Shown here: positions 30,114 through 57,311 of the stretch, one piece after another
How the letters are laid out: each line of letters starts with the position of its first letter
How positions within the stretch are numbered: position 1 is the first letter of the stretch
IMG/VR virus record: IMGVR_UViG_3300027963_005443
Strand: one strand, 5' to 3'
Source: a virus
Length of the DNA stretch: 64,000 nt
Translations under genes and position numbers: made by a program
The notes under the pieces: model-generated
The model's database searches: none
The model's input: the letters and a program-made list of their open reading frames with translations, nothing else
What the model was told of the DNA's origin: nothing

Positions 30114-33100
30114 CTAAGTTTGGTTACAGGTGATTTCATTGCTTAATTCCCAACCGACATACCGACCATCTGCGTTACCGCAACCAGAGTCCATGGATGT
30201 TGAGCAAAAAGTTGCAGAATTATACGGTGAATCATTTACATACAATGCGGGCACATCGCAGATTTTTGTGCTTACGGGATGCGAAGACATATATGTCCCA
30301 AAGCTATCTATAACTACTCCACAATTGCAACCGTAATTAATGTTTTGCCATTCTACCACGAAGTATCCAGTATCGGCAGTGGGACCGGCTGAACAGCTAT
30401 CATTATCTATGAATTTAGCAGTCTTATACCAATTAAGAGATCCATCAAAAGCTTGAAACCCATTTCCTCCACTAGGACAACAACATTTAACTCCATCAAT
30501 TCCGTTTGACACATCAAAATATATTGTTTCAGGAGGACCCATATATTTTATAGACGCCAATGAACAAGGATTGGTAAGACTATCATCGTTATTTAGTTGG
30601 TAGCTTGCAATATTTATTCTGCCATAATTTCCATTATTATTAGCTTGTGATAATACCGTTCTTACTTGATTATTGCTTCTAAATAAATAGTTTGGATTAA
30701 ATCTTTTTATTACCATTTTGCTTAATGGACAAGTGCTGAATGTCTCTGATCCTTGGAAATGAGCTGTAGGATGGCCTATAAATATGCCGCCTATAGTATC
30801 ATTTAAACTCAAATCCACAGTTCCTAAATTATTATTATTAAGATAAAGATCAATATTGTCGTCTTTGGCAGCATTTGAATTACAAATCCATACCACAACC
30901 ACACGACAATAACACTTATATGGAACTGGCGATTTTGTTAGGGTTAAGGTTGCAGTTTTAGTTGGTGTCAGTGTTGGTGTTGATGTCAGTGTTGGAGTAA
31001 GTGTTGGGGTAAGTGTAAGTGTTGGAGTAGGAGTAGGAGGAGGCAAAGCAATACAAACCTCATTTGACATGCAAGGCTTTTTGCAAAATACCCTGAAACA
31101 TATTTCATTTGCTCCAACAGGACCATTGTTGGCTCCTACTTTCATATACTCGCTCAAGGACCCAGTTTCACAGTTTCCGCATCTACCTGGACGGAGGCAT
31201 ACGCACAGTTTATCAACGCTTCTTTGTGCAGAAACATAAGGCAACCCGTCCTGCTCATCGTTGGTACAGACAAAACTCGGCAAGTCATCACTTTGGGTGG
31301 CATACTTCCAGTAGCCAGAATTTAAACCATTACCCTTATAATAAGCAGCTTTGTACCATTCGTCTTCACTTGGTATCCAATACTTGGCATTAGTATTCTT
31401 TTCCACAATTCCACATTTTGGAACTATTCCATTGAGAGTATATGCTCCATCTTCTGTAGAAGAAGAATCAAGCATACCATTGTGAAGCCAATTACAAAAT
31501 CTAGCGCAGTCGTACCAATCCACAAGAACTACAGGTTTATTACACATTCTACTCTTTGTGGAATAAGTGTAATTTGGAGAAGATCCATTTCTCACTATAC
31601 CACAATTTACATTATATATATTATCATCTCCTTTATATAATCCGTAATCATCTTTCTTGGCAATACTATTTAAAAAAGAGCAATACTGTTTGTTGGTGAT
31701 AGAATATTTTCCTATTGAATACTTGTAAGAAACAGAACCAAATCCAGAATTTCCATTATCATCTACGGACATATCAGACCGATTATTCAAATCTTCAATA
31801 TCCATAAAGCGTATTCCGCTAAAAGACTCATCATTTAAAGTACAAAGCCTAAACCCTAATGATTCATGAAAAACATGTGCTCCCACCACTTTTGGATGGT
31901 TAGATGAGAGACCGTCTACATTCATCCAAGAACCACCTCTCCAGACTATGCAGGATTTATCCGAACAACCGGCAACATTATTTTCTGCCCAATCTAAAGT
32001 TATTCCGCTTCCTATTATGTTCCAAACATTACCGCTCATGTCATAAGTTCCATAGGCACTTGGTCCACCATTTGTGCCAATGGTGGTAACATTGGATGTA
32101 GAGCGATGAGCAAAATCAGTGGCTGGCCATTTATTGTATCCCGAGTTTACATGTTGAGGTCCGTCATTTAAATCTACATGATCTAAAAATGTTATCCAAC
32201 CCGGGGAACCTGGTTCGTTGGTCTTGTATTCAATTCCATTGCAACAATTATCATTTCTAAGTAAATTTATAATATAATTTAAATCTCCATTACCTAGTAT
32301 TCTTCCATCAGTTGTAACAGAGCCAATTATTATTGGAGGATTACATTCTTGACAACCTTCGCAACCTGGGTTTATTGGATCCCAATTACAAGAAGTACTA
32401 GTTAGTGTTGGGGTAGAGGTGAGCGTTGGAGTTAACGTTAAAGTTGAAGTTAAAGTGAAAGTTGGAGTTAATGTAGGAGTGACAGTTGGTGTTTTGGTAA
32501 GCGTAGGAGTGAGCGTAGGAGTGAGCGTAGGAGTTGGAGTAGATGTAGAAGTGGGGGTGGCTCCTGGGGTTGGATCGGGAACAATACAAGATATGCCGTC
32601 GCCCACATTGTTAGCACACACACAATCGGGAAGAGTGTCACTCTGGGTGGCATATGTCCAATATCCTCCAGAACCATTCTTGTTTGGATCATAATAAGCA
32701 GCTTTATACCATTCATTTTCATTGGGAACGAAATAAAGAGCATCTGGGTTTCTTGAAAATGCTGCGCTTCCAATTGCAGGCAAGGAACCGATCAAGCCGT
32801 CTCTGTCGACCTCACCGCCGGAGGGTGCTCCACCCAAAGTATATGCTCCAGTTTCGGTGCTGCTAGTGGACTGGCCTCCGTTATGAAGCCAATTACATAA
32901 TCTTGCTGCACAAAACCAATTGACAAAATTAACTGGTTTATTACCCATGTTAATTTTGGAAGAATAGGAGTAATTTCCAGAACTTCCAGTTCTCAATATT
33001 CCTCCTATAGAAAGATCGCCCATATTAGGACTGTATACTCCATAATCATCAGTTTTGGCAACTGAATTCAGAAATTGCACGTATTCATCATTGGTTAATT

Positions 33101-34100
33101 CATATTTTTGAATTTTATAATTATAAGAAACGGAACCATAAGCAGAATCGGGAGGATTATTTGGATTACCAATAGATACAAAACTACTATAGTCTAAGGG
33201 ATTTTCGATAGAGGCAATTCTAAATCCTATCCAGTAATATTTAATATCAACAGTATCGTTTCTCCACGATTTACTTAGTCCCATGGGACCCTCGTTGAAA
33301 GATCCTCCTCTCATAACACGAACACTTGGATTAAATTTTATTATTGTATCTGTAATTTCGTTTAAATTTCCGGTTTGATCGCATGTTCCATAAGCGCTTG
33401 GACCTCCGTTAGTGCCAACAGAGGTTTGATTTCCATTTCCGATCACTGAGCCGAAACCAGGTGGAACAGAGAGCCCCCAAAAAGAACAATCTTTGCCGCC
33501 ATTAGCACTATTTCTTCCCACCAGGGATATATCTGGAAGTTCTTCTTGACTTAATGGTCCATCGTAAATCTCTATTCTATAGACTGACCCCGGACAGTAT
33601 TCGTTTGGAACCTCAAGATCATCTATAAAAAATAAAAGGGTATTATTATCTGCCACTGCTTCATTGAGTGTATCTACCCAAGAAAATTTACTAATGTTAT
33701 TGACATATACGGCAACAACATTACTTGCACCATCTCTAGAAATAATCAATCTTAGTATTTTATTTGAAATTATAGTATTATCTATACTCTCGTAGGGCTC
33801 CCACTGAATGCGTCCCCTATTACCATACAAACCAATGTCAGAGGTTCTATTTTTTGTATCTAGTATTCTTTGTAAATCTCCAGTAGTACTTAAATCAAAT
33901 TTGAAGTCTATTATTATTGTATAATTATCATTATAAGCTAAGGCATCTTTAAGAATCAAACCTTGGTTAGCACTAGACGACCCACCAAAATTATAAGAAT
34001 TACTAGTGAGTATACCTCCGTTTGGCCGCAGGGATGGTCCTCCCAGTGTATCATTTAAATTGTTTTTGAATTCGTATAAATGTATGAGAGAGGCTGGCAT
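30114..34100 (-). CDS. Putative receptor-binding protein A: LamG-like domain + 2 permuted FGE/CLec domains + TPT linkers
   Basis: LIHLYEFKNNLND N-domain; two GPSAYGT.D..GN / RGGS / GFR / KY..TN / EWYKAAYY sets. Confidence 0.75.
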   Translation of the reverse strand: MPASLIHLYEFKNNLNDTLGGPSLRPNGGILTSNSYNFGGSSSANQGLILKDALAYNDNYTIIIDFKFDLSTTGDLQRILDTKNRTSDIGLYGNRGRIQWEPYESIDNTIISNKILRLIISRDGASNVVAVYVNNISKFSWVDTLNEAVADNNTLLFFIDDLEVPNEYCPGSVYRIEIYDGPLSQEELPDISLVGRNSANGGKDCSFWGLSVPPGFGSVIGNGNQTSVGTNGGPSAYGTCDQTGNLNEITDTIIKFNPSVRVMRGGSFNEGPMGLSKSWRNDTVDIKYYWIGFRIASIENPLDYSSFVSIGNPNNPPDSAYGSVSYNYKIQKYELTNDEYVQFLNSVAKTDDYGVYSPNMGDLSIGGILRTGSSGNYSYSSKINMGNKPVNFVNWFCAARLCNWLHNGGQSTSSTETGAYTLGGAPSGGEVDRDGLIGSLPAIGSAAFSRNPDALYFVPNENEWYKAAYYDPNKNGSGGYWTYATQSDTLPDCVCANNVGDGISCIVPDPTPGATPTSTSTPTPTLTPTLTPTLTKTPTVTPTLTPTFTLTSTLTLTPTLTSTPTLTSTSCNWDPINPGCEGCQECNPPIIIGSVTTDGRILGNGDLNYIINLLRNDNCCNGIEYKTNEPGSPGWITFLDHVDLNDGPQHVNSGYNKWPATDFAHRSTSNVTTIGTNGGPSAYGTYDMSGNVWNIIGSGITLDWAENNVAGCSDKSCIVWRGGSWMNVDGLSSNHPKVVGAHVFHESLGFRLCTLNDESFSGIRFMDIEDLNNRSDMSVDDNGNSGFGSVSYKYSIGKYSITNKQYCSFLNSIAKKDDYGLYKGDDNIYNVNCGIVRNGSSPNYTYSTKSRMCNKPVVLVDWYDCARFCNWLHNGMLDSSSTEDGAYTLNGIVPKCGIVEKNTNAKYWIPSEDEWYKAAYYKGNGLNSGYWKYATQSDDLPSFVCTNDEQDGLPYVSAQRSVDKLCVCLRPGRCGNCETGSLSEYMKVGANNGPVGANEICFRVFCKKPCMSNEVCIALPPPTPTPTLTLTPTLTPTLTSTPTLTPTKTATLTLTKSPVPYKCYCRVVVVWICNSNAAKDDNIDLYLNNNNLGTVDLSLNDTIGGIFIGHPTAHFQGSETFSTCPLSKMVIKRFNPNYLFRSNNQVRTVLSQANNNGNYGRINIASYQLNNDDSLTNPCSLASIKYMGPPETIYFDVSNGIDGVKCCCPSGGNGFQAFDGSLNWYKTAKFIDNDSCSAGPTADTGYFVVEWQNINYGCNCGVVIDSFGTYMSSHPVSTKICDVPALYVNDSPYNSATFCSTSMDSGCGNADGRYVGWELSNEITCNQT
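31513..32270. repeat. ~758-bp identical direct repeat, copy 1
   Basis: Line-by-line comparison found no mismatch to 35365-36122 (offset 3852). Confidence 0.85.
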
Positions 34101-34130
34101 TTATTTTATATATTGAAGATAACGCATAAT

Positions 34131-37100
34131 TTACATGGAATCAATCACATAACTTTTGTCATTAGCCACAGTAACAACGTCCAGTGGCATGCAGTAACTT
34201 AAAACTACTTTTCCCTTATTATCCACTACTCTTATCCAATTTATACCGCTGTGACAACCTCCTGCTCCCCAGTAACAGGTCAACTGAAATGTATATTCAT
34301 CCTTGCCTGGGAACGGGCGATCGGCTCCACCTTTTTTCGGCTTAACATTACCAGGAATGATTGCGTAATCGTATCTAGCCATAGGATTATTAGCCTTGTC
34401 TGAGAAGGGGTATATTGATGTAAATTTAGAATTATTAGGGGACCTATAATCGAAAGGATCATCTGCTCCTCCTCCATTATTTGTGTTCATTGTCTTAACA
34501 AACACTCCATTTATGTTTAAATTAAACTTAGCGGCATTGCATCCGTGACTACCGTCGCATGATCCCCCCGGCGCCCACCAGCTTTCGGGGCCAGCACCGT
34601 GCTGGGGATCATATATAATCTCTACTCTGTATCCTGCAATTTGGCCTACTGGAGATAGGGGGATCGGGGTAGCAGTTGGGGTTTGGGTTTTTGTTAAGGT
34701 TGGGGTCAAGGTAGGTGTTGGAGGTATGGTAGAGGTCATAGTGGCCGTTAAGCTTGCTGTCGGCACGATAGTCAGAGTAGGCGTCTCTGTAAGTGTGGGG
34801 GTGCTAGTGAGAGTGGGTGTAGACGTAAGCGTAGGAGTTAATGTTTGTGTTGATGTAGGGGTGGGAGTAGGCGTAGGAGGAGGCAAGGGAATACAAACCT
34901 CATTTGACATACAGGGTTTTATACAGAAAACTCTAAAACATATTTCTGTGGCGCCATATGGTCCATTATTGGCCCCAACTTTCATATACTCGCTCAAAGA
35001 CCCAGTTCTACAATTGCCACATCTATTTGGGTCTAGGCACACACAGAGACTATCGTCACTTCTTTGCGTGGAAGCATAAGGAAGTCCATCCTGTTGACTG
35101 TTGGTGCATACAAAACTCGGCAAGTCATCACTTTGGGTTGCATACTTCCAGTAACCAGAATTTAAACCATTGCCCTTATAATAAGCAGCTTTGTACCATT
35201 CGTCTTCACTTGGTATCCAATACTTGGCATTAGTATTCTTTTCCACAATTCCACATTTTGGAACTATTCCATTGAGAGTATATGCTCCATCCTCTGTAGT
35301 TAAAGTATCTTGATTTCCATTAAGCATACCATTATGAAGCCAATTACAAAATCTAGCACAATCATACCAATCCACAAGAACTACAGGTTTATTACACATT
35401 CTACTCTTTGTGGAATAAGTGTAATTTGGAGAAGATCCATTTCTCACTATACCACAATTTACATTATATATATTATCATCTCCTTTATATAATCCGTAAT
35501 CATCTTTCTTGGCAATACTATTTAAAAAAGAGCAATACTGTTTGTTGGTGATAGAATATTTTCCTATTGAATACTTGTAAGAAACAGAACCAAATCCAGA
35601 ATTTCCATTATCATCTACGGACATATCAGACCGATTATTCAAATCTTCAATATCCATAAAGCGTATTCCGCTAAAAGACTCATCATTTAAAGTACAAAGC
35701 CTAAACCCTAATGATTCATGAAAAACATGTGCTCCCACCACTTTTGGATGGTTAGATGAGAGACCGTCTACATTCATCCAAGAACCACCTCTCCAGACTA
35801 TGCAGGATTTATCCGAACAACCGGCAACATTATTTTCTGCCCAATCTAAAGTTATTCCGCTTCCTATTATGTTCCAAACATTACCGCTCATGTCATAAGT
35901 TCCATAGGCACTTGGTCCACCATTTGTGCCAATGGTGGTAACATTGGATGTAGAGCGATGAGCAAAATCAGTGGCTGGCCATTTATTGTATCCCGAGTTT
36001 ACATGTTGAGGTCCGTCATTTAAATCTACATGATCTAAAAATGTTATCCAACCCGGGGAACCTGGTTCGTTGGTCTTGTATTCAATTCCATTGCAACAAT
36101 TATCATTTCTAAGTAAATTTATTATATAATTTAATTTTCCATTACTTAGCAATTCCCCATTAGTGGTAACAGAACCTATTATGATTGGAGGATTACATTC
36201 TTGACAACCTGTGCATCCTGGGTTTGTTGGATCCCAATTACAAGAAGTACTAGTTAGTGTTGGGGTGGAGGTGAGCGTTGGAGTTAAAGATAGAGTTGGA
36301 GTTAAAGTATTTGTTGATGTTAATGTTGGGGTTACAGTTGGTGTTTTGGTAAGCGTAGGGGTGATTGTGGGAGTTAGTGTGGGAGTAAGAGTTAAAGTTG
36401 GCGTTGGCGTGGAGGTAGATGTGGAAGTGGGCGTAACTCCGAGAGTAGATGTCAATGTAGGTGTTGGGTCGGGAGGAACACACACTATGCCATCGCCAAT
36501 ATTACTTGCGCATACACAGTCCGGGGTGATGTCACTCTGTGTCGCATAAGTCCAGTATCCTCCAGAACCATTCTTGTTGGGATCATAATATGCAGCCTTA
36601 TACCATTCATTTTCATTGGGAATAAAATAAAGAGCATTTGGATTTCTTGAAAAGGTTGCGCTATTAGTAACAGCTCCATTTAATGTGTATGCTCCGGTTT
36701 CAGTACTACTAGATGCTGCGCCTCCGTTATGAAGCCAGTTGCATAGTCTTGCCGCACAAAACCAACTTACAAAATTAACAGGTTTATCACCCATATTAAT
36801 TTTAGAAGAATAGGAGTAATTTCCAGAACTTCCAGTTCTTAATATGCCTCCTGCTGGGGTGCTTCCCATGTTAGAACTATATAATACATAATTATCGGTC
36901 TTTGCCACTGAATTTAAAAATTGAGCATATTCATCATTGGTTAACTCATATTTTTGTATTTTATAATTATAAGAAACAGAACCAAATCCAGTATCATCGG
37001 AAGGATTATTGATATTTCCTATCAAAACAAAATTACTATAATTTAATGTGTTGGTAATAGAAGCTATCCTAAATCCCAAATCAGATAAGCCCAAAGGATA

Positions 37101-37958
37101 TTCTACATTGGTGGCGACTTGCCTTGCAAGGTTGGATATGCCAATGGGTGTTGTTGACGACGAGGATCTAAATGAACCTCCTCTGAGATAATGAGCATCG
37201 TTGCTGTTGGGCAGTGGGACGAAGCTTCCATAAGGAGTCTCTGTCCATTCAGCAATATTCCCTGTTTGATCGTATGTTCCATAAGCGCTTGGACCTCCGT
37301 TAGTGCCAACAGTAGTTTGATTTCCTTCACCCGGAAATCCTGCACCCCAAAAAGCGCATGTATCATAATTAGTTTTATTTCTTCCGGCAGGGGATATCTC
37401 TGGCAATTCTGTCTGGGCCAGCGGTCCATCATAAACTTCTATTCTATAGACGTGACCAGGATCGCACTCATTAGGAACCTCAAGATCGTCTATAAAAAAC
37501 AAAAGAGTATTATTAAATGCTATAGCCTCACCAATGGTATCAACCCAAGAAAATTTACTGCTATTGTCAACATATGTATTAACTACATTACTTTGGCCGT
37601 CTCTAGTGATAACAACTCTTGATGTTTTGCCTGCCACTATAAGGCCATCATCTATGCTCAGATAAGGAAACCATTGAAGGTGACCTTGGTAACCATATAA
37701 TCCCCTATCTGAGGTTCTATTTTTTGTATCTAATATTCTTTGCAAATTGCCGGGAAGGCTATCAAATTTAAAGTCTATTATTATTGTATAGCTATTATTA
37801 TAGGCCAATGCATTTTCAAGAATTAACCCTTGGTTGGGACCAAAACTATAGGAGTTGGAACCGGTAAGCGCTCCTCCGATTGCCCGGATTGGCGGTCCAC
37901 CTAGTGTATCATTTAAACTATTTTTGAATTCGTATACATGTATAAGAGAGGCTGGCAT
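34131..37958 (-). CDS. Putative receptor-binding protein B, tandem paralogue of A with a different C-terminal domain
   Basis: Same architecture as A; the C-terminal ~200 aa are unrelated. Confidence 0.75.
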   Translation of the reverse strand: MPASLIHVYEFKNSLNDTLGGPPIRAIGGALTGSNSYSFGPNQGLILENALAYNNSYTIIIDFKFDSLPGNLQRILDTKNRTSDRGLYGYQGHLQWFPYLSIDDGLIVAGKTSRVVITRDGQSNVVNTYVDNSSKFSWVDTIGEAIAFNNTLLFFIDDLEVPNECDPGHVYRIEVYDGPLAQTELPEISPAGRNKTNYDTCAFWGAGFPGEGNQTTVGTNGGPSAYGTYDQTGNIAEWTETPYGSFVPLPNSNDAHYLRGGSFRSSSSTTPIGISNLARQVATNVEYPLGLSDLGFRIASITNTLNYSNFVLIGNINNPSDDTGFGSVSYNYKIQKYELTNDEYAQFLNSVAKTDNYVLYSSNMGSTPAGGILRTGSSGNYSYSSKINMGDKPVNFVSWFCAARLCNWLHNGGAASSSTETGAYTLNGAVTNSATFSRNPNALYFIPNENEWYKAAYYDPNKNGSGGYWTYATQSDITPDCVCASNIGDGIVCVPPDPTPTLTSTLGVTPTSTSTSTPTPTLTLTPTLTPTITPTLTKTPTVTPTLTSTNTLTPTLSLTPTLTSTPTLTSTSCNWDPTNPGCTGCQECNPPIIIGSVTTNGELLSNGKLNYIINLLRNDNCCNGIEYKTNEPGSPGWITFLDHVDLNDGPQHVNSGYNKWPATDFAHRSTSNVTTIGTNGGPSAYGTYDMSGNVWNIIGSGITLDWAENNVAGCSDKSCIVWRGGSWMNVDGLSSNHPKVVGAHVFHESLGFRLCTLNDESFSGIRFMDIEDLNNRSDMSVDDNGNSGFGSVSYKYSIGKYSITNKQYCSFLNSIAKKDDYGLYKGDDNIYNVNCGIVRNGSSPNYTYSTKSRMCNKPVVLVDWYDCARFCNWLHNGMLNGNQDTLTTEDGAYTLNGIVPKCGIVEKNTNAKYWIPSEDEWYKAAYYKGNGLNSGYWKYATQSDDLPSFVCTNSQQDGLPYASTQRSDDSLCVCLDPNRCGNCRTGSLSEYMKVGANNGPYGATEICFRVFCIKPCMSNEVCIPLPPPTPTPTPTSTQTLTPTLTSTPTLTSTPTLTETPTLTIVPTASLTATMTSTIPPTPTLTPTLTKTQTPTATPIPLSPVGQIAGYRVEIIYDPQHGAGPESWWAPGGSCDGSHGCNAAKFNLNINGVFVKTMNTNNGGGADDPFDYRSPNNSKFTSIYPFSDKANNPMARYDYAIIPGNVKPKKGGADRPFPGKDEYTFQLTCYWGAGGCHSGINWIRVVDNKGKVVLSYCMPLDVVTVANDKSYVIDSM
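35365..36122. repeat. ~758-bp identical direct repeat, copy 2
   Basis: Matches 31513-32270; the flanks show mainly synonymous differences. Confidence 0.85.
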
Positions 37959-37992: not shown

Positions 37993-38442
37993 ATGGATTT
38001 TAAAACATTCTTTGAACAAGAAGATAGCAAAAGCATAAAAAAAACTATAGGTAAATTACCTAGGGGTCATCAAAAACTTTTGGATGGATTTAAATTTAGA
38101 TACACATCAGACAACACCTTGGACAACGATCATGGTCATGTAGGAATAATCCAGGGCAAAAATATAGAAGTATCAGCGCCTTGGAATTATGGTAGAGAAT
38201 GGGTCACATTGCACGAAATAGCCCACAGAATATGGGAAGAAAAGATGACAAAAGAACTCAAAAAAGAATGGAGTCCTTTAGCCAAAAAAATTAAGAACAA
38301 AAATAGAGATAATAAATCTTTACAACAAAACGATGAAGAGCTTTTTGCTATGGCCTATGCAGCCACCTATGCAAAACATCCTGTTGTTACATTCCATCAC
38401 AAGGAATGGATCGAGTTTATTAAAGAAAAAGTTCCAAGTTAA
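37993..38442 (+). CDS. HExxH zincin-like protein with CTS-like N-terminus
   Basis: MDFKTFFEQE; WVTLHEIAHRIW; downstream EELFA. Confidence 0.6.
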   Translation: MDFKTFFEQEDSKSIKKTIGKLPRGHQKLLDGFKFRYTSDNTLDNDHGHVGIIQGKNIEVSAPWNYGREWVTLHEIAHRIWEEKMTKELKKEWSPLAKKIKNKNRDNKSLQQNDEELFAMAYAATYAKHPVVTFHHKEWIEFIKEKVPS

Positions 38443-39167
38443 ATCGGTCTAGATTGCACATCACTCAATAACTTTGGAAGAGTAGTCATTGCATCTTCGG
38501 TCAATCTTTCATAATCATTAATATCTAGACTGAATATCTGGTAATGGTGGCAGATAGGATTCTTCATTACCTGCGGGTTGTATCCCTTATTCTGTGTTTT
38601 GAGGGTCATAAGGAAACTCATACCAACCTGTGGGAGCATTTCATTCCAAGGACCACAATTTTCCCAACATTCTTTTGTCATTAAACAAAGATACTCTTGT
38701 AAAAACTCTACCTTTTGATCACCCATCATATAGCTTGAAAAATCAACGCCAACAAGACCGGCTTTATTATTTTCTGCGACATTTATTAGAAGATCCAACC
38801 ATGCCGCATTGAGTATGACAACATCACAATGCATAAAAATAAAGTACTTTGAATTTTTATCAGCAGCTTTTGCACCCTTATTTGCAGCACTGCTCCAAAA
38901 TTCATTCTTCGGAAGTCTAACGAGTTTAACCTCATTTTTAATATCTTCCAAAAACGACTGAGACTCTTCTCCACTTCCATTATCAACAACTATTATTTCA
39001 TAATTATTACTAAAACTAGTGACAGCAATACTCTGAAGACAAATATTGAGATACTCAGGCCTGTCCTTATGGACCACTATGATGCTGACTTGTTCTTCGG
39101 TGCTGTTGTGCATCGGTATAGAGAGTTCTGCACGGTCGCCTTCGAGGGGATTGTATGGTTTAGCCAT
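38439..39167 (-). CDS. GT2 glycosyltransferase
   Basis: VSIIVVHKDR, EIIVVDNGS, AANKGA, FMHCDVV. Confidence 0.85.
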   Translation of the reverse strand: MAKPYNPLEGDRAELSIPMHNSTEEQVSIIVVHKDRPEYLNICLQSIAVTSFSNNYEIIVVDNGSGEESQSFLEDIKNEVKLVRLPKNEFWSSAANKGAKAADKNSKYFIFMHCDVVILNAAWLDLLINVAENNKAGLVGVDFSSYMMGDQKVEFLQEYLCLMTKECWENCGPWNEMLPQVGMSFLMTLKTQNKGYNPQVMKNPICHHYQIFSLDINDYERLTEDAMTTLPKLLSDVQSRPI

Positions 39168-41175: not shown

Positions 41176-41730
41176 TTATTGATTTTTTGGAACAACTCTT
41201 GCAATAATTTGATTGCTAGAAATGAAGGGGTCTTTTTCAACTATGCCTAGATCTTTCAATTCATCGATAAACTTTTTAATTAATTCAAATCCCTTATCTT
41301 TGTGAGATAAATCTCTATATGTTTTAAATCTAACGGTGATCTGAAGTTTCTTTTTATCTTCAAGAAAAGATTTGGCCTGATTGATTTTTATATTAAGATC
41401 ATTTTGCTCTATGCAAGATTTAAATCTGATCTCCTTTAAATCATTCTTATTCTTCTTTAAGCTTTTTTCTTTTATCTTTTGTTCGTAGAGATATTTTTCA
41501 TAATTTATAATATGACATACTGGTGGATTTGCAGTCGGGACCAGTTCAACCAAATCGAGCTTCTTATCTTGCGCCAGTCTTTGAGCAGAGGCGGTATTCA
41601 TTATGCCGATCTGCTGACCTTCACTTATCACTCTTACGCAAGGAGCCTTTATAAAATTATTAATTTTATGCTTAGGTTGATTACCATGATTGGTAAAATA
41701 CCTATTATTGTTGTTGTAAAATTTGTTCAT
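41176..41730 (-). CDS. infC: Translation initiation factor IF-3
   Basis: INNFIKAPCVRVI, LDLVELVPTANPPVCHIINYEKYLYEQK, KEIRF, NDLNIKINQAKSFL. Confidence 0.92.
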   Translation of the reverse strand: MNKFYNNNNRYFTNHGNQPKHKINNFIKAPCVRVISEGQQIGIMNTASAQRLAQDKKLDLVELVPTANPPVCHIINYEKYLYEQKIKEKSLKKNKNDLKEIRFKSCIEQNDLNIKINQAKSFLEDKKKLQITVRFKTYRDLSHKDKGFELIKKFIDELKDLGIVEKDPFISSNQIIARVVPKNQ

Positions 41731-47217: not shown

Positions 47218-47625
47218 TTATTTTTTTTCTAAAAAATTGTTTTTAATCGAGATAGCTGTCCAGTGAGGATCGTTTTCAGGGAGATATTCTGGTTTGGTGA
47301 AATAAAATGCTTCATATGTGTATTCATATTCTTTCTTTTCAACTTCCTCCAGGCTAAGTCCATTTAATAAATCATTAGATATATTCTTTAAAACTCTGAT
47401 TGCGTCTTCTTCTATGGCTCCGCCTAACTTTCGCATAACTTTTAATGCAGACACAGAATCATTATGCATCAATAAATTCATTAAATCTTTTTTCATAACT
47501 CCGTCAACAAGAAAAGCTTTTGCCCTGTATCTCGCCAGGATCTCATCTTTACCAGGTTTATTATTTTTGATTTCTTTGAAATATTTAAAGAAATTTGTTT
47601 CATCGATTATAAGTTCGTCTGACAT
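47218..47625 (-). CDS. Hypothetical protein
   Basis: 135 aa ORF overlapping the end of dnaE-C. Confidence 0.65.
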   Translation of the reverse strand: MSDELIIDETNFFKYFKEIKNNKPGKDEILARYRAKAFLVDGVMKKDLMNLLMHNDSVSALKVMRKLGGAIEEDAIRVLKNISNDLLNGLSLEEVEKKEYEYTYEAFYFTKPEYLPENDPHWTAISIKNNFLEKK

Positions 47626-50225
47626 TTTTCTATTTCCTTTTCTTGTTCAATGGTAGTATCATCAGTTATATTATTAGGTTTTCTCAATAATACCAATCTA
47701 TAGTCATCGCTCTTTTCAATCTGTTTCTTTTTGTAAAAATTTCTTGGTCCAATTGAAGAGAGTGTATATGTTTTAAAACCGTTAGATGGTGCATTTAATC
47801 TCATTCTAACAAAGTTACCTGCAACTATCTCATTCTGGAAAGAATTATAGTCATCTTTCCAAACATTAATAACACCTTCGTCGCCATTTTCGTCTTCAGC
47901 CTTTATTTGATAATATTCTGCTCTCTTACCTTTTCTTTTATTAACTGCTATTATCTCGATCTCTACCGGAAGGATCTCGTTGACACCCTCAGTAAAAGAA
48001 TCAAAAGTGCAACCACCTTGATAATCAAGACTGTTGCGAATCTTCGAAGTCCAAGAAAACCCGTAATATCTCTTCTCGCATTCAGCAAGAGATTCGAGAA
48101 GTTCTTTTTCTAGTTTATTATCAATTGTTATTGATAAAGGATCAAAAGATTCTAAGTCTGGTTTGTCTTGATTGTCCTTGAGCTTAAATTTCTCAGTAGC
48201 TTTAGTCATCTTGTTTATTAGTTTGCAAACTTCTTTCCATAGATCTTTACCGTCTATTTTCAATCCCTTGTATCTTTCTTTCCATATTTCACAATTGCTA
48301 ACTTTTTTTAGATCCTTAGAATCTATAGGATCTATTTCACCTTTAGCAAGTTTTTTGATAGTCTCACTAGAATTTTCTGCCCTGTCTATTAAGTCCATCA
48401 AAACTTCTTTATTCTTCTTACTCGATGCTTGATGTCTTTTCTTTCTATCAATTTTCTTCTTTGTATAATCTTTGTAAGCCTCAGCAAATTTAAATAGTGT
48501 AACTGGGTCTGAGTCTTTGAAAGATCCTGTTGATATGAGAGGCTTCAATACGCTTGAATCAGTTCCAAACCTATCTATAAAATCTTCAAAATTAGCATAA
48601 GGTTGCTTTTCAACTATCTGTTCGGCAACATTTATCCCTATGCCTTTAACATTTGAAAAGCCAAAATATATTTCATCATCAACAAGACTAAAATTTGCCT
48701 TGGATTTATTTATATCAATCTTATTGATCTTTATATTGTGCTTTATTATTTCTTTTCTATACTCTTTGATTTTATCAGTATTGTCTTCACACATCAAAAT
48801 AGCAGTATAAAACTCATGTGGATAGTGTGATTTTAAATATAGAAGTCTTGCAGATATATGAGTATATGCGCAGGCGTGGGATTTGTTAAAACCATATTCG
48901 CTAAAAGAAATAAGCTGATTAAACAGTTCTTCGGATTCTTCTTCTGTGCAAGATAGATTCTTTTTTCCATTTTTAATAAATACTTCTTTGTACTTTATGA
49001 ACTGTTCTACTTTTTTCTTACTAATTGCTTTTCGAACAGTTTCGACATCCCTCATTGGGATATCTCCAATTATATGTAATATTTTCATCACCTGTTCTTG
49101 ATATATGATAACGCCATAGGTGCTATTTAATATTTCATCAAGCATAGGATGTAAATTATACTCTTCTCTGCCTCTTTTTCTTTCAATATATCTCTCGTGC
49201 ATTTTCATATTTAACGGACCTGGCCTGTATAAAGCCGAGTAAGCCACTAAATCTTCAAATCTTGTAACACCACCAGATTTGGCGAGATTTCTAATTCCAT
49301 CTGAGTCGAACTGGAAGATACACTTAAGATCTCCTTCGTCTGCCATTATCAATGCTTTTTCATCATTCCTATATTGATCAATATCGGTCCAATTTGATTT
49401 GCCATGAAGAGCGCATATTTTTTCTATTCCATGCCGCTCATATATAAGCCTGCAACAGTGAGCTATTTGTAAAAGATTGCTAATAACCAACAAATCAAAT
49501 TTAACAAGACCCACAGGCTGTAGGTCTTGACCGTGAAGACCTTCTACCCAAGCACTAGCTTGGGGGTCATCTTTCCTTTTAACAAGAGGAACAAGATCTG
49601 TAAGTGGTATGCTGCTGATAATAAGACCTCCAGCATGAACTCCCATGCCTCTATTTCGATCAATTAATTTATGGGCAGCCTTGGCAACATCAGGATTATC
49701 ATCACAATATTTCTTGAGACCGGGATCAACCTTCATTGCAGACTCCCAAGTCAAAGCTTTACCTTCATCATCCTTGGTTTGAAGCTTGGTAGTTAAAGCA
49801 AGCAATTCTCCTCTATCTTTATCATGAACTCTAGCCATATCTATTAGAGACGATTTAATACCATATGTTGTGTAGTTGCCAATATTACAAACATATTGCT
49901 CACCAAATGTTTTGGGGGCCCATTCATTCTTTAAAAAATCACGCACTGCTGGAAGGTAGTCGGTATCCACGTCAGGCGAATCTCCATAGAAAAATTCGGG
50001 ATCTTGATCTATGTTGAAATCTTTAACTATATCCAAAAGATATGGAACCAAAAGATTATTTTGATTTTCAGGGTATTTTATGCCTCTATTATAAAGATCA
50101 ATAAAATAATTCTCTTTATTTTGAATCTCTGTCTCGAGTAGTTCCCAATTGAGCCTTTTCAGATAAATAGGGTCGCTCAAACCCTTTTGACTTAATTTTT
50201 CTACACAGATTTCCCTGAGATTCAT
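47607..50225 (-). CDS. dnaE: DNA polymerase III alpha, C-terminal (catalytic palm/fingers/HhH/OB) subunit
   Basis: SPDVDTDY, GVHAGGLIIS, GLVKFDLL, IFQFDS, ALYRPGPL, YGVIIYQEQVM, YGFNKSHA, YPHEFY, FGFSNVKGIG. Confidence 0.93.
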   Translation of the reverse strand: MNLREICVEKLSQKGLSDPIYLKRLNWELLETEIQNKENYFIDLYNRGIKYPENQNNLLVPYLLDIVKDFNIDQDPEFFYGDSPDVDTDYLPAVRDFLKNEWAPKTFGEQYVCNIGNYTTYGIKSSLIDMARVHDKDRGELLALTTKLQTKDDEGKALTWESAMKVDPGLKKYCDDNPDVAKAAHKLIDRNRGMGVHAGGLIISSIPLTDLVPLVKRKDDPQASAWVEGLHGQDLQPVGLVKFDLLVISNLLQIAHCCRLIYERHGIEKICALHGKSNWTDIDQYRNDEKALIMADEGDLKCIFQFDSDGIRNLAKSGGVTRFEDLVAYSALYRPGPLNMKMHERYIERKRGREEYNLHPMLDEILNSTYGVIIYQEQVMKILHIIGDIPMRDVETVRKAISKKKVEQFIKYKEVFIKNGKKNLSCTEEESEELFNQLISFSEYGFNKSHACAYTHISARLLYLKSHYPHEFYTAILMCEDNTDKIKEYRKEIIKHNIKINKIDINKSKANFSLVDDEIYFGFSNVKGIGINVAEQIVEKQPYANFEDFIDRFGTDSSVLKPLISTGSFKDSDPVTLFKFAEAYKDYTKKKIDRKKRHQASSKKNKEVLMDLIDRAENSSETIKKLAKGEIDPIDSKDLKKVSNCEIWKERYKGLKIDGKDLWKEVCKLINKMTKATEKFKLKDNQDKPDLESFDPLSITIDNKLEKELLESLAECEKRYYGFSWTSKIRNSLDYQGGCTFDSFTEGVNEILPVEIEIIAVNKRKGKRAEYYQIKAEDENGDEGVINVWKDDYNSFQNEIVAGNFVRMRLNAPSNGFKTYTLSSIGPRNFYKKKQIEKSDDYRLVLLRKPNNITDDTTIEQEKEIEKCQTNL

Positions 50226-50270: not shown

Positions 50271-50444
50271 ATGAAAAAGAACAAATCAGTCCTGCTGGGA
50301 GTCTGTGCTGACTTGGGTGACAAAACAGATATAAATCCAAATTGGATACGTATTGGATTTGTTGCTTCTTTTTTATTTTTTGGGATAGGACCACTAATTT
50401 ATATCATAATGTGGATTTTAATGCAACTTAGAAAAGGGAGATGA
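50271..50444 (+). CDS. pspC: PspC-domain membrane protein (57 aa; not in ORF track)
   Basis: LLGVCADLGDKTDINPNWIRIGFVASFLFFGIGPLIYIIMWILM matches the PspC domain; ATGA overlap with the next gene. Confidence 0.8.
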   Translation: MKKNKSVLLGVCADLGDKTDINPNWIRIGFVASFLFFGIGPLIYIIMWILMQLRKGR

Positions 50445-54416: not shown

Positions 54417-57311
54417 ATGCCAAAAGAAGAACTAGAAAAATACGCAAAAGACCCAACAATCATAGTAATAAATGATGCCATAAGCATTGGATTGAGATAT
54501 GGTGCACCATACACATTGGCTTGGGATCAGAGAAACCTGGCTTACATAAAATCCATAGAGTCTGGGTCTGGGTATGTGCCTCAGAGCTCCTCCCAGTATG
54601 ACAAATTTAATAAAAATAATGCTTCAGATCAGTGCTATAACCATAATCATTATGTGTGGGAAAATGATTCGTGGAACGCAGTATCCGCATGTGATGCGGG
54701 ATGGATAGGAACCCTGGTTTTGGAATATATAGCTCCAACCTCAACACCAACACTTACAAAAACACCAACATTAACATCTACTAATACGCCAACTCCCACC
54801 CTGACTGCTACACCCACAAAAACAAAAACGTTAACACCAACAAAAACATCAACTCCAACTGCAACATCAATTGCAGGCAATAGTGCAAATTATAAAAAAA
54901 ATGCTTATTGGGGAGAAATAGGAAATGAAGGAGGACCAACTTCTGTTGGTACCAACGGAGGACCAAGTGCATATGGCGCCTATGATATGAATGGAAATGT
55001 ATGGGAATTAACAGATGGAAGTAATAGCAAAAAAATTCTACGTGGAGGATCTTTTTCTTCTAATGATTTATTGAAAGGAAACAGATTTGAATTTAATTTC
55101 AAAGATAGAACTATAGGTTTTAGATTATCTTCAATAAATAATCCTTTAAATTATAGTAAATTTGTTAGCATAGGCAATCCTGGAAACCTACCAGATAGTA
55201 GGCATTCCTTCGGAAGTGTGGGATATAATTACTTAATACAAAAATACCCTGTGACAAACACTGAGTATTGTGAGTTTCTCAATATTGTAGCAAAATCGGA
55301 TCCATATAATTTATACAACTATTCAATGTCCGAAGATCCAGCAGGAGGAATACAAATATCTGGTGTATCAGGGAGATACACATATTCAGTAAAACCAAAA
55401 ATGGGCAACAAGCCAGTTAATTTTGTTGGCTGGTTGAGTGCCGCCAGGATGGCTAATTGGCTTCATAATAGAGCATCACATCCATCGACAACAGAGACTG
55501 AGTCTGGGGCATATAATTTAAACGGATCAGAAATATTTTTCGAAATAGATAAAAATCCGAATTCTATGTATTATATTCCGTCTGAGGATGAGTGGTATAA
55601 AGCAGCATTTTACAAATCTAGTGTTGCTGGTTATTGGGAATATTCCACTCAAAGCAACATCGTTCCAAATCCAATTTGTGCAAATAGTAATGGGGACGGC
55701 TCTAATGTGTGCATCACCAGAACACCTACGCCAACAAAAAGTGTAACTCCAACTAACACAAGAACACCCACTTTAACAAAGACATACACTCGAACACCCA
55801 CACAAACTCCCACACTAACAAAAACATCAACTTTAACAAAAACACCAACTTTAACAAAAACTCCTACATTAACCAGTACTCAAACGGCCACGAATTCAAA
55901 TACTCCAACACTAACTAGAACTCCAACACTAACTAGAACTCCAACACTAACTAGAACGATAACCAAAACTTTAACTAATACTCCGACAAAAACAAAGACT
56001 CCAACAATAACCAGAACATCAACAAGTACACCAACTCCTACATTAACAAGAACTCCTACATTAACAAGAACTCCTACACTAACAAGAACTCCTACACTAA
56101 CAAGTACACCTACACTAACAAGTACACCTACACTAACAAGAACTCCTACACTAACAAGTACACCTACACTAACAAGTACACCTACACTAACAAGTACACC
56201 TACACTAACAAGTACACCTACACTAACAAGTACACCTACACTAACAAGTACACCTACACTAACAAGTACACCTACACTAACATTAACAAGTACTCCTACA
56301 CTAACAAGTACACCTACACTAACAAGTACACCTACACTAACATTAACAAGTACTCCTACACTAACAAGTACACCTACACTAACAAGTACACCTACACTAA
56401 CAAGTACACCTACACTAACATTAACAAGTACTCCTACACTAACAAGTACACCTACACTAACATTAACAAGTACTCCTACACTAACAAGTACACCTACACT
56501 AACATTAACAAATACACCGACAAATACCAAAACACCAACCCCTACACAAACACCAACACTATCAAACCCATACGCACCGGGTTATAATGTTTTTGTGGAT
56601 GATTTTAATAGAATTCCGGTTAGTCCTGGAGGAGTGCCATCTATTGTCTATACATCTACGATAACAAATACCGGTAGTATCTCCATTGTTAGTTCATATT
56701 TAAGATTAAGAGCGGATAATACAAATACATCCGGAAGACTTTACATGATGTCTACATATACTTTAATGAATAGTCCTAATTTTTATTCTCAATTAAATTT
56801 AAATCCAACAGTTGTTAATTGGTCTATAAATGTGAGAAATAACTGGTCCGACATTTTAAGTGGGTTTGATACAGGACTTTTTGGCCAAGCCGTTATTTTA
56901 GCGTCAAGTGGAACTAATGTGTTAACTAATGGTTATGGTTATGCGTTAGTTTATGGAGGGTCGGGAACTAGACAATGGCGTTTAGTTAGTTTTACAGGTG
57001 GTCTACAAGCAAACACTAATATAACAACGATTTTATCAACACCAGATTCACCAGGGTTTGGGGATGGCGATTATTTAAGTTTAAAGGTTTCTTATGATTC
57101 GCTAACAAATAATTGGCGATTATATTTTAGGAATGACGGTACCGCTTGGGTTGACCCTAGACTAACAACAGGATATAGTACTCCTGGTGTGGCTACAAAT
57201 GGAACATATACAAATATAACATTAGATTCGTTCGGGTATTTTTATAATTTTGGGTCAACACTAAATTCTAATGCCTCAATATTTGATAAACTTAACATTT
57301 ATTATAATTAA
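54417..57311 (+). CDS. Putative fibre: permuted FGE/CLec domain + ~280-aa (T-S/R-TPTL)n stalk + C-terminal beta domain
   Basis: GPSAYGAYDMNGNVWE, RGGSF and GFRLSS precede SIGNPGN, QKYPVTN and EWYKAAFY. Confidence 0.75.
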   Translation: MPKEELEKYAKDPTIIVINDAISIGLRYGAPYTLAWDQRNLAYIKSIESGSGYVPQSSSQYDKFNKNNASDQCYNHNHYVWENDSWNAVSACDAGWIGTLVLEYIAPTSTPTLTKTPTLTSTNTPTPTLTATPTKTKTLTPTKTSTPTATSIAGNSANYKKNAYWGEIGNEGGPTSVGTNGGPSAYGAYDMNGNVWELTDGSNSKKILRGGSFSSNDLLKGNRFEFNFKDRTIGFRLSSINNPLNYSKFVSIGNPGNLPDSRHSFGSVGYNYLIQKYPVTNTEYCEFLNIVAKSDPYNLYNYSMSEDPAGGIQISGVSGRYTYSVKPKMGNKPVNFVGWLSAARMANWLHNRASHPSTTETESGAYNLNGSEIFFEIDKNPNSMYYIPSEDEWYKAAFYKSSVAGYWEYSTQSNIVPNPICANSNGDGSNVCITRTPTPTKSVTPTNTRTPTLTKTYTRTPTQTPTLTKTSTLTKTPTLTKTPTLTSTQTATNSNTPTLTRTPTLTRTPTLTRTITKTLTNTPTKTKTPTITRTSTSTPTPTLTRTPTLTRTPTLTRTPTLTSTPTLTSTPTLTRTPTLTSTPTLTSTPTLTSTPTLTSTPTLTSTPTLTSTPTLTSTPTLTLTSTPTLTSTPTLTSTPTLTLTSTPTLTSTPTLTSTPTLTSTPTLTLTSTPTLTSTPTLTLTSTPTLTSTPTLTLTNTPTNTKTPTPTQTPTLSNPYAPGYNVFVDDFNRIPVSPGGVPSIVYTSTITNTGSISIVSSYLRLRADNTNTSGRLYMMSTYTLMNSPNFYSQLNLNPTVVNWSINVRNNWSDILSGFDTGLFGQAVILASSGTNVLTNGYGYALVYGGSGTRQWRLVSFTGGLQANTNITTILSTPDSPGFGDGDYLSLKVSYDSLTNNWRLYFRNDGTAWVDPRLTTGYSTPGVATNGTYTNITLDSFGYFYNFGSTLNSNASIFDKLNIYYN
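56044..56505 (+). repeat. 18-bp tandem array (acaagtacacctacacta; TSTPTL) with interspersed 24-bp variants
   Basis: More than 20 near-identical units visible; boundaries approximate. Confidence 0.9.

What the first reader, a model, noticed from the sequence alone, without database searches (positions are those of the whole stretch)
30114..37958. Circularly permuted FGE-sulfatase/C-type-lectin domains (five copies with one breakpoint)
Known: the canonical order is V.VGNPGN..G.G.V.Y.Y.IGKYEVTN > PVN.VSW > LP.EDEWYKAAYY > T.VG..S.YGT.DQ.GNV.EW > RGGS > GFR (C-end). Seen: in both domains of 30114..34100, both domains of 34131..37958, and in 54417..57311, the T.VG/GNVWE/RGGS/GFR block comes first. 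It is joined by an ~8-12 aa linker (e.g. ITNTLNYSNF, INNPLNYSKF) to the canonical N-terminal block. The segment between GNxxE and GFR is the most divergent between copies and lacks the catalytic Cys pair. Inference: these are binding modules whose ligand loops have been moved from the C-terminus to the interior, so they can be strung inside multi-domain fibres.
Basis: partly seen in the sequence, partly recalled or inferred. Interest (0 to 1): 0.75.

Follow-up and report, generated by a model that had tools for sequence, protein, structure and literature searches.

The report
Swapped-halves lectin-fold domains, phage proteins
Three large Pro/Thr-stalked proteins of an uncultured large phage carry five copies of a known binding fold (FGE-sulfatase / C-type-lectin type) with its last third moved in front of its first two thirds; the rewired domain is still predicted to fold normally and belongs to a big family, found here in virus-like DNA, that has no database model of its own.

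Summary
In all five domains (two in 30114-34100, two in 34131-37958, one in 54417-57311), Pfam FGE-sulfatase positions ~165-254 come before positions ~35-127, joined by an 8-9 residue linker. Each domain aligns end to end to a doubled canonical relative, starting at about position 200-225 of 300.

With 79 permuted homologues, AlphaFold2 gives one compact domain (pLDDT 94.6, pTM 0.93). Of 48,161 solved chains only 16 match it, and 15 of those have FGE-type or C-type-lectin folds.

The catalytic Cys pair is absent. The loops between GNVWEW and GFR are the most variable part. No reverse transcriptase or template repeat was found.

On trees the permuted form is one clade or nearly so. It occurs in 17 IMG/VR contigs. 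It was not seen in 80 bacterial loci or 201 sampled Planctomycetota genomes, whose relatives are canonical, often tandem or PEP-CTERM-anchored.

The likely origin is duplication then truncation. The likely role is a non-enzymatic binding head on phage surface proteins; this is inferred, and no ligand is known.

A sixth copy (8290-10686) is permuted at a different point. This scan already holds 59 notes on this permuted domain, from at least 36 genomes.

The parts
30114..34100 (-). Gene for a 1328-aa protein (P0001). Order of parts: ConA/LamG-like N-terminal domain, permuted FGE-like domain 1, Pro/Thr linker, Cys-rich segment, permuted domain 2, Pro/Thr linker, unique Cys-rich C-terminal domain.
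   Evidence: the LamG_3 assignment is only a lead from the protein atlas
33210..33425 (-). P0001 domain 1, C-terminal block placed first (TSVGTNGG...GNLNE...RGGS...GFRIAS), residues 226-297
   Evidence: half-HMM E 4e-25; Pfam profile 165-254
32637..33185 (-). P0001 domain 1, N-terminal block placed second (FVSIGN...KYELTN...PVNFVNW...ENEWYKAAYY...YATQSD), residues 306-488
   Evidence: E 7e-71; Pfam profile 35-127
31839..32087 (-). P0001 domain 2, C-terminal block first, residues 672-754
   Evidence: E 3e-22; Pfam profile 173-253
31287..31811 (-). P0001 domain 2, N-terminal block second, residues 764-938
   Evidence: E 1e-69; Pfam profile 36-126
34131..37958 (-). Gene for a 1275-aa tandem paralogue (P0002). 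Same architecture as P0001 up to residue ~1050, then an unrelated C-terminal domain.
37059..37316 (-). P0002 domain 1, C-terminal block first, residues 215-300. Its variable loops differ in length and sequence from those of P0001 domain 1.
36531..37034 (-). P0002 domain 1, N-terminal block second, residues 309-476
   Evidence: E 5e-77
35691..35939 (-). P0002 domain 2, C-terminal block first, residues 674-756
35127..35663 (-). P0002 domain 2, N-terminal block second, residues 766-944
54417..57311 (+). Gene for a 964-aa protein (P0003). Order of parts: small N-terminal region, Pro/Thr linker, one permuted domain, ~300-residue Pro/Thr stalk, ConA/LamG-like C-terminal domain.
54939..55133 (+). P0003 domain, C-terminal block first
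   Evidence: E 1e-21; Pfam profile 161-253
55158..55658 (+). P0003 domain, N-terminal block second. The whole domain 54867-55721 lies between two Pro/Thr linkers and was the sequence modelled.
8575..9507 (+). Sixth FGE-like domain, in the 798-aa protein 8290-10686 (P0004), with a different breakpoint. RG...GFRLAS (8575-8673) comes first, then the N-terminal block (8725-9222), then TTVATNG...GNVSEW (9352-9507) last.
   Evidence: The doubled-sequence alignment starts at canonical position ~255. The C-half HMM matches only its positions 1-31 downstream of the N block.
31513..32270 (.). 758-nt stretch identical base for base to 35365-36122. It covers the front part of domain 2 in both tandem genes.

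Best explanation
What it is. Each of the five units is one FGE-sulfatase-type (C-type-lectin-like) domain that has been circularly permuted. The chain starts in the middle of the 37-residue surface loop that, in canonical relatives, links ...YATQSD to TxVGxNG. It then runs through the GNVWEW / RGGS / GFR part that carries the variable loops. It crosses an 8-9 residue bridge that joins the old C-terminus to the old N-terminus. It ends after the old N-terminal two thirds.

Origin (inferred). A tandem array N-C-N-C with a short inter-domain linker lost its first N block and its last C block. This happened once or very few times, in a lineage now seen in large uncultured phages.

Function (inferred). 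The domain is not an enzyme, because it lacks the Cys pair. It most likely acts as a carbohydrate- or surface-binding head whose specificity lies in the two hypervariable loops. It is displayed together with ConA/LamG-like modules on Pro/Thr stalks of phage surface proteins (fibres or decorations).

Shown: swapped order, one breakpoint, predicted single fold, absence of catalytic residues, loop variability, distribution.
Inferred: the route of origin, virion location, binding function, ligand.
For: Order:
- Pfam halves are swapped in all five domains.
- The half-HMM pattern is C-8/9-N.
- Each domain aligns end to end to a doubled canonical domain.

Cut site:
- The canonical N->C loop reads ...GDI..NxANY..WNG..TTVG. 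Permuted domains end ...GDG and begin NxANYN..WNG..TTVG.

One domain, not two halves:
- P0003's unit is bounded by Pro/Thr linkers on both sides.
- 44 short proteins of 282-493 aa consist of one C-8-N unit. Examples are P0161 (297 aa) and P0189 (282 aa).
- The C->N spacing is 8 residues in 105 of 163 units and 9 in 27 more. The spacing from N to the next C varies widely, from about 24 to about 800 residues.

Fold:
- The AlphaFold2 model has pLDDT 94.6 and pTM 0.93, and all five models score 93.8 or more.

Non-enzymatic:
- There is no Cys between RGGS and GFR.
- Pfam at E <= 0.1 reports no family other than FGE-sulfatase on the three proteins, so no DinB-type domain.

Binding loops:
- The loops have entropy 2.5-2.8 bits and 78 insertion columns.
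- P0001 and P0002 domain 1 share 15-16 of 40 residues in the loops against 31-36 of 40 in the core.

Origin:
- Canonical tandem arrays with 3-12 residue C->N linkers exist.
- On a 526-unit tree all 144 permuted units fall in one clade (support 97), with 3 changes of state.
- On a 47-row IQ-TREE the permuted units form one side of a branch, SH-aLRT 96.4.

Distribution:
- The permuted unit is in 17 of 37 IMG/VR loci and 15 of 80 metagenome loci.
- It is in 0 of 80 bacterial genome loci.
- No junction-spanning match was found in 201 sampled Planctomycetota genomes.

Context:
- None of the three proteins has a signal-peptide-like N-terminus.
- The flanking modules look ConA/LamG-like (leads only).
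- In relatives the gene lies next to a major-head-protein-like gene (L010) and a tail-fibre-like gene (L018).
Against: - Foldseek gave no match at E <= 0.001.
- In the window the genes sit among PhoH, a glycosyltransferase, a protease, IF3 and DnaE, not in an obvious virion module.
- PHROGs gives no structural annotation for these proteins.
- No ligand is known.
- The larger trees need 3 changes, and two small canonical groups nest inside the permuted clade. A strictly single origin is therefore not proven.
- 'Phage-only' is a sampling statement. The best 80 of about 591 bacterial loci were read, and at most 11 candidates per genome were scored.
Confidence: 0.75

Rival explanations
1. The C and N blocks are not one domain. 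They are leftovers of a tandem array, and each half-domain is completed by a partner half from another chain (a domain-swapped oligomer) or from the other unit of the same protein.
For: - The fold's own N and C termini are neighbours, so swapping between chains is geometrically conceivable.
- Fibres are often trimers.
- Sequential structure aligners matched only one half at a time.
Against: - The monomer model is compact, with pTM 0.93.
- Single-unit proteins of 282-330 aa exist.
- The 8-residue junction is length-conserved, while N->next-C distances vary widely, about 24-800 residues.
- P0003 has only one unit.
Confidence: 0.07
2. The domains are binding modules, but the proteins are not parts of the virion. 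They might be released at lysis or act inside or on the infected cell, for example by binding host envelope glycans or the phage's own glycosylated Pro/Thr proteins.
For: - The window neighbourhood is metabolic and replicative, not structural.
- Several glycosyltransferases and many Pro/Thr-rich proteins are encoded nearby.
- PHROGs gives no structural family.
Against: - There is no signal peptide.
- Relatives lie beside head-like and tail-fibre-like genes.
- The modular lectin-plus-stalk architecture, with divergent tips in tandem paralogues, resembles fibre cassettes.
Confidence: 0.15
3. The domains are targets of a diversity-generating retroelement, like TvpA or Mtd, and the variable segment is hypermutated.
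For: - The fold is the commonest DGR target fold.
- The variable segment corresponds to the region where DGR targets vary.
Against: - There is no RVT_1 hit among the window ORFs scanned, including every ORF of 280 aa or more.
- There is none in four related viral records, three of them rated complete.
- No template-like repeat of the variable segment occurs in the window.
- The copies differ by insertions and deletions, which DGRs do not make.
Confidence: 0.03
4. The domains are active FGE-, EgtB- or PvdO-like enzymes.
For: Sources name relatives 'formylglycine-generating enzyme' or 'SUMF1/EgtB/PvdO family nonheme iron enzyme'.
Against: - The Cys pair after RGGS is absent in all five.
- Pfam reports no family other than FGE-sulfatase on the three proteins, so no DinB-type iron domain.
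- The names are automatic transfers from the Pfam family.
- The active-site region is the least conserved part.
Confidence: 0.02

Closest known systems
FGE-sulfatase-domain surface proteins of Planctomycetota and Verrucomicrobiota, many with a PEP-CTERM anchor. They are annotated 'formylglycine-generating enzyme family protein' or 'SUMF1/EgtB/PvdO family nonheme iron enzyme'.
   Same: - They are the closest sequence relatives, at 40-51% identity over the blocks.
- They have the same subfamily motifs (KYEVTN, NKPVNFVxW, ARYCNWLHN, GAYxL, ENEWYKAAYY, YATQSD, GNVWEW, RGGS, GFR).
- They lack the Cys pair in the same way.
- They are often in tandem arrays.
   Different: - Their order is canonical (N block, 37-38 residue loop, C block).
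- They carry signal-peptide or PEP-CTERM contexts (PF07589 in P0193, P0211, P0238, P0258; GFRVASVPEP tails).
- The window's copies are permuted, have no anchor and sit in phage proteins.
TvpA, Treponema denticola variable protein 1 (PDB 2y3c), and other FGE-type C-type-lectin-fold DGR variable proteins (TaqVP 5vf4, Mtd 1yu0)
   Same: - They are non-enzymatic binding proteins of the same fold.
- The variable surface lies in the equivalent segment.
   Different: - Their chain order is canonical.
- Their variability comes from a retroelement and keeps length constant. Here there is no retroelement, and the variation includes insertions and deletions.
CarF (PDB 5aoh), the carbapenem intrinsic-resistance protein
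   Different: It has canonical order, is a single-domain periplasmic protein, and shares 20% identity.
Human FGE (SUMF1, e.g. 1y1e) and its paralogue pFGE (SUMF2, 1y4j)
   Same: - They founded the Pfam family that both halves match.
- pFGE is the only PDB hit by sequence (E 0.036).
   Different: FGE is a copper oxidase that uses a Cys pair, which these domains lack. Its order is canonical.
The sixth domain of the same genome (8290-10686)
   Same: It belongs to the same subfamily, is also permuted and is also in a Pro/Thr-stalked protein.
   Different: Only the last ~45 residues (RG...GFR) are moved to the front. Its breakpoint lies between GNVSEW and RGGS, not in the N->C loop.

Membership tests
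Pfam FGE-sulfatase (PF03781) / FGE-type C-type-lectin-like fold | Significant match to the family profile | tested here: met
   Whole proteins score 117, 124 and 50.5 bits against a 23.3-bit cut-off. Each half scores above the cut-off on its own.
Pfam FGE-sulfatase (PF03781) / FGE-type C-type-lectin-like fold | Blocks colinear with the profile (N block, then GNVWEW/RGGS/GFR at the C-terminal end) | tested here: not met
   Profile positions 165-254 precede positions 35-127 in all five domains, and the doubled-sequence alignment confirms it. The domains belong to the superfamily by homology but not to the canonical topology.
Pfam FGE-sulfatase (PF03781) / FGE-type C-type-lectin-like fold | Three-dimensional fold like solved members | tested here: met
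Formylglycine-generating enzyme (catalytic FGE) | Two catalytic, copper-binding cysteines shortly after the RGGS motif (Cys336/Cys341 in human FGE; from established knowledge) | tested here: not met
   No Cys lies between RGGS and GFR in any of the five copies (read directly).
EgtB/OvoA-type sulfoxide synthases | N-terminal DinB-like iron-binding domain fused to the FGE-like domain | tested here: not met
   Pfam at E <= 0.1 finds only FGE-sulfatase on the three proteins. The region in front looks LamG-like.
DGR variable proteins | Nearby reverse transcriptase | tested here: not met
   There is no RVT_1 among the window ORFs scanned, including all of 280 aa or more. There is none in four related viral records. 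The rest of this phage's genome was not available.
DGR variable proteins | Template repeat near-identical to the variable region, differing at adenines and without indels | tested here: not met
   No such repeat occurs in the 64-kb window. The copies differ by indels.
Phage tail fibre / virion surface protein | Homology to known fibre families, or location in the structural module | tested here: inconclusive
   PHROGs gives only unknown-function families and a family labelled 'kinase'. The window neighbours are not structural. In relatives, head-like and tail-fibre-like genes are adjacent.
Phage tail fibre / virion surface protein | Presence in particles | not testable with these tools
   This needs virion proteomics or microscopy.

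The most novel reading that the evidence does not exclude
The permuted FGE-type lectin domain is a phage-specific host-recognition module. On this reading it was captured from PEP-CTERM surface lectins of Planctomycetota/Verrucomicrobiota-like hosts and rewired by duplication and truncation. Rewiring has been selected more than once: there are two different breakpoints in this one genome, and a canonical-order group with short new loops nests inside the permuted clade. The selective reason would be that moving the chain ends away from the old N/C seam lets the binding-loop cassette and the scaffold be exchanged or nested as separate recombination units. The mosaic tandem genes fit this: they have a 758-nt identical patch, divergent loops and unrelated tips.
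Probability: 0.25. Interest if true: 0.65.

Novelty: new variant of a known kind. Interest (0 to 1): 0.5.

Why it matters
- Database models treat this fold as colinear. These domains are therefore reported as two partial hits, or as a misnamed 'formylglycine-generating enzyme', and their boundaries and numbers are miscounted in phage genomes.
- A dedicated profile for the permuted form would find a large family. Here that meant 144 distinct units among the 526 units from proteins and loci with a clean domain order, within a search that returned 2,231 cluster representatives at E <= 1e-30, canonical and permuted together.
- The family would mark candidate receptor-binding proteins of large uncultured freshwater phages. 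A survey of 224 jumbo phages reported no FGE-type lectin domains at all (PMC7824862).
- It is a clean natural example of duplication-truncation permutation, with apparent ancestors (tandem arrays) still extant and a second breakpoint in the same genome.
- It also shows that the variable, ligand-binding part of this fold tolerates being placed first in the chain.

Tried and rejected
- Foldseek of both models against the PDB and of the good model against BFVD gave no match at E <= 0.001. The best rows were still FGE-type proteins: PorK, TvpA, pFGE, and the SUMF-like protein of Microcystis phage LMM01. I put this down to order-dependent alignment of a fold with little regular secondary structure.
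- The first AlphaFold2 run used 29 sequences and left residues 1-80 at pLDDT 31-56. It was superseded by the 79-sequence run.
- phmmer against PDB sequences found only pFGE, at E 0.036.
- tblastn of the domain against 50,697 GenBank phage records found no match at 1e-5.
- NCBIfam has no model that fits.
The genomic context of the short stand-alone permuted proteins could therefore not be read, and whether they are viral is unknown.
- A tree on the N block alone needed 15 changes and was poorly supported. It was replaced by the N+C concatenated tree.
- An AU test of monophyly on 79 rows did not finish in two 300-s runs. On a 47-row set no test was needed.
- A terminase search (PF03237) in related records gave only sub-threshold hits.
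- Literature searches for circular permutation together with formylglycine, C-type lectin fold or FGE-sulfatase found no description. Subscription journals are not covered.
- I considered and rejected that the contiguous 'query 5-280' matches in bacterial loci were permuted units. On translation they are canonical, and the tool had joined non-colinear pieces.


Full report
THE GENES. The window reads as part of a large uncultured phage. Its own assembly is not held. The nearest record is a 103.6-kb IMG/VR contig rated 21% complete. Genes near the finding include PhoH, IF3, a split DnaE, glycosyltransferases, a trypsin-like protease and an alginate lyase.

The finding covers two tandem genes on the minus strand, 30114-34100 (1328 aa, P0001) and 34131-37958 (1275 aa, P0002). 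It also refers to 54417-57311 (964 aa, P0003). All three proteins are modular, with long Pro/Thr linkers and no signal-peptide-like N-terminus. Pfam finds only FGE-sulfatase (PF03781) on them: four stretches on each of the first two and two on the third.

I cut each domain at the GFR-to-FVxxGN junction and scanned the pieces separately.
- In all five domains the first piece matches profile positions 161-173 to 253-254.
- The following piece matches positions 35/36 to 126-134.
- Every piece scores above the family's 23.3-bit cut-off.

I then built half-domain HMMs from homologues: 'C' covers TVG...GFR and 'N' covers FVxxGN...YATQSD. They give C-8-N-183-C-9-N, C-8-N-197-C-9-N and C-8-N for the three proteins, with E-values from 1e-21 to 1e-77.

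The classical test for circular permutation also passes. Each domain aligns over nearly its full length to a canonical relative joined to a copy of itself. The alignment enters at about position 200-225 of ~300 and leaves one turn later. Scores are about 110-150 units higher than against a single copy.

- No cysteine lies between RGGS and GFR in any copy.
- In a 79-sequence alignment the two loops GNVWEW->RGGS and RGGS->GFR are the most variable segments. Their entropy is 2.5 and 2.8 bits with 78 insertion columns, against 1.5 bits for the N block.

WHERE THE CHAIN WAS CUT. Canonical relatives join the N and C blocks by a loop of 37-38 residues (101 of 181 cases). The loop reads ...YATRSN..P...A...GDI....NVANY....WNG...N.TTVG. 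Permuted domains end ...YATQSD..P..V.A...GDG and begin N.ANYN..A.WNG..GN.TTVG. The new ends therefore lie inside that loop and nothing is lost. The old ends are joined by a bridge that is variable in sequence but fixed in length: 8 residues in 105 of 163 units and 9 in 27 more.

ONE DOMAIN, NOT TWO HALF-DOMAINS.
- P0003's unit is bounded by Pro/Thr linkers on both sides.
- Among proteins of 156-499 aa, 44 consist of a single C-8-N unit with about 17 residues after it. Examples are P0161 (297 aa) and P0189 (282 aa).
- The distance from an N block to the next C block varies from about 24 to about 800 residues, while C-to-N is fixed.

THE STRUCTURE MODEL. A first AlphaFold2 run with 29 sequences was confident only for the N block. 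With 79 permuted homologues the model of 54867-55721 has mean pLDDT 94.6 and pTM 0.93, and all five models reach 93.8 or more. That indicates one compact domain.

This is the swapped order seen at the level of structure. The Z-values are middling, and I had no coordinates for a permutation-aware superposition. That remains the main gap.

THE FAMILY AND ITS DISTRIBUTION. An exhaustive HMMER search with one domain found 7,712 cluster representatives at E <= 0.001 and 2,231 at E <= 1e-30. Both orders occur among the top 150.

| Source | Result |
|---|---|
| 80 bacterial genome loci, mostly Planctomycetota and Verrucomicrobiota MAGs | All canonical (N-15..45-C) or canonical tandem arrays (N-38-C-10-N-38-C), often ending GFRVASVPEP, i.e. 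PEP-CTERM |
| 37 IMG/VR loci | 17 carry the C-8-N unit, on contigs of 16-223 kb, three of them rated complete |
| 80 metagenome loci | 15 carry it |
| 201 sampled Planctomycetota genomes | A profile of the permuted domain gave only matches starting at the N block |
| 50,697 GenBank phage records | No relative at 1e-5 |
| BFVD | No full-length structural match |

Sources name the relatives 'formylglycine-generating enzyme' or 'SUMF1/EgtB/PvdO family'. That is a family-name transfer, not a tested function.

ORIGIN. I concatenated the N and C blocks in one common order for 526 distinct units.
- The tree places all 144 permuted units in one clade (support 97) that also holds 16 canonical units. 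Three changes of state are needed.
- A 79-row IQ-TREE also needs three changes. Shuffled labels need about 26.
- On a 47-row set the permuted units form one side of a branch, with SH-aLRT 96.4.

Canonical tandem arrays with 3-12 residue linkers also exist. Together this fits duplication followed by loss of the first N block and the last C block, once or a few times. A strictly single origin is not proven. One nested canonical group has an unusually short N->C loop (21-25 residues) and may be a reversal.

FUNCTION IS INFERRED. The domains lack the FGE Cys pair and any DinB-type partner domain, so an enzymatic role is unlikely.

They are not DGR targets.
- No reverse transcriptase was found among the window ORFs scanned or in four related viral records.
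- No template-like repeat was found.
- The copies differ by indels.

The conserved scaffold with two hypervariable loops points to a ligand-binding head. So do the accompanying ConA/LamG-like modules (leads only) and the stalk-like linkers.

The tandem paralogues P0001 and P0002 are mosaics.
- The N-terminal domain is 60-80% identical.
- The domain 1 core is 80-90% identical, but its loops share only 15-16 of 40 residues, with indels.
- Domain 2 is identical over 758 nt.
- The C-terminal domains are unrelated.

In relatives the gene lies beside a major-head-protein-like gene (L010) and a tail-fibre-like gene (L018). In this window the neighbours are not structural, so virion location is plausible but not shown.

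The permutation, the loss of catalytic residues and the binding-module reading are supported. The proposed purpose, that permutation allows stringing inside fibres, is not. Canonical domains are strung just as tightly, and a circular permutant keeps its two ends adjacent in the same way.

BEYOND THE FINDING. The 798-aa protein at 8290-10686 carries a sixth domain of the same subfamily, permuted at another point.
- RG...GFRLAS (8575-8673) comes first and TTVATNG...GNVSEW (9352-9507) comes last.
- The doubled-sequence alignment enters at canonical position ~255.
- The C-half HMM matches only its first 31 positions downstream.

NOVELTY. I found no description of a permuted FGE-type or C-type-lectin domain in the searchable literature. 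A survey of 224 jumbo phages states that no such lectin domains were found in them (PMC7824862). The fold, its non-enzymatic use and circular permutation as a process are all well known, so this is a new variant of a known kind.

This scan already holds 59 notes on the same permuted domain in at least 36 genomes. My tests were made independently and agree with them.

Noticed in passing
window 8290-10686 (+), domain 8575-9507: A sixth FGE-like domain is permuted at a different point. Only RG...GFR (about 45 residues) is moved to the front, and TTVATNG...GNVSEW ends the domain. So one genome holds two different circular permutations of the same subfamily.
   Followed up: partly
window 31513-32270 and 35365-36122: A 758-nt stretch is identical base for base between the two tandem genes, which are otherwise 72-85% identical. 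This suggests recent gene conversion or an assembly collapse. The proteins' C-terminal domains (after residue ~1046) are unrelated.
   Followed up: yes
loci L081, L179, L199, L200; proteins P0097, P0107: A small group of canonical-order units with an unusually short N->C loop (21-25 residues instead of 37-38) nests inside the permuted clade on the 526-unit tree. It may be a reversal from a permuted tandem array, or a tree artefact.
   Followed up: partly
window 5824-7116 (-), 38439-39167 (-), 58582-59316 (-): A eukaryote-type GlcNAc transferase (PF11397, E 7e-71) and two family-2 glycosyltransferases lie among many Pro/Thr-stalk proteins. The stalks may be O-glycosylated by the phage itself.
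   Followed up: no
window 10697-16201 (+): An 1834-aa protein carries RCC1 / RCC1-like repeats (PF25390 and PF00415, E about 1e-60). It has an internal ~2-kb duplication at ~80% identity (12097-12512 against 14092-14480) and lies in a GC-rich stretch (0.41-0.46 against ~0.34).
   Followed up: no
window 57403-58542 (-): An alginate lyase gene (PF05426, E 4e-54) lies directly downstream of P0003. It may be a polysaccharide depolymerase working with the lectin-like protein.
   Followed up: no
window 51595-52983 (-) and 47607-50225 (-): DNA polymerase III alpha is split into two genes, PHP plus the start of the NTPase domain in one and the rest in the other. They are separated by a plus-strand ORF (50441-51433).
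   Followed up: no
window 41176-41730 (-), 18062-19051 (+), 62241-63101 (-), 16232-17158 (-): The phage encodes IF3, adenylosuccinate synthetase, thymidylate synthase and a radical-SAM protein. This auxiliary gene content is typical of very large phages.
   Followed up: no
proteins P0202, P0227, P0257, P0263, P0268; locus L126: These fragments have the pattern N-38-C-8-N. They combine the canonical 38-residue loop with the 8-residue permuted junction in one chain, the kind of array from which a permuted unit could be cut.
   Followed up: no
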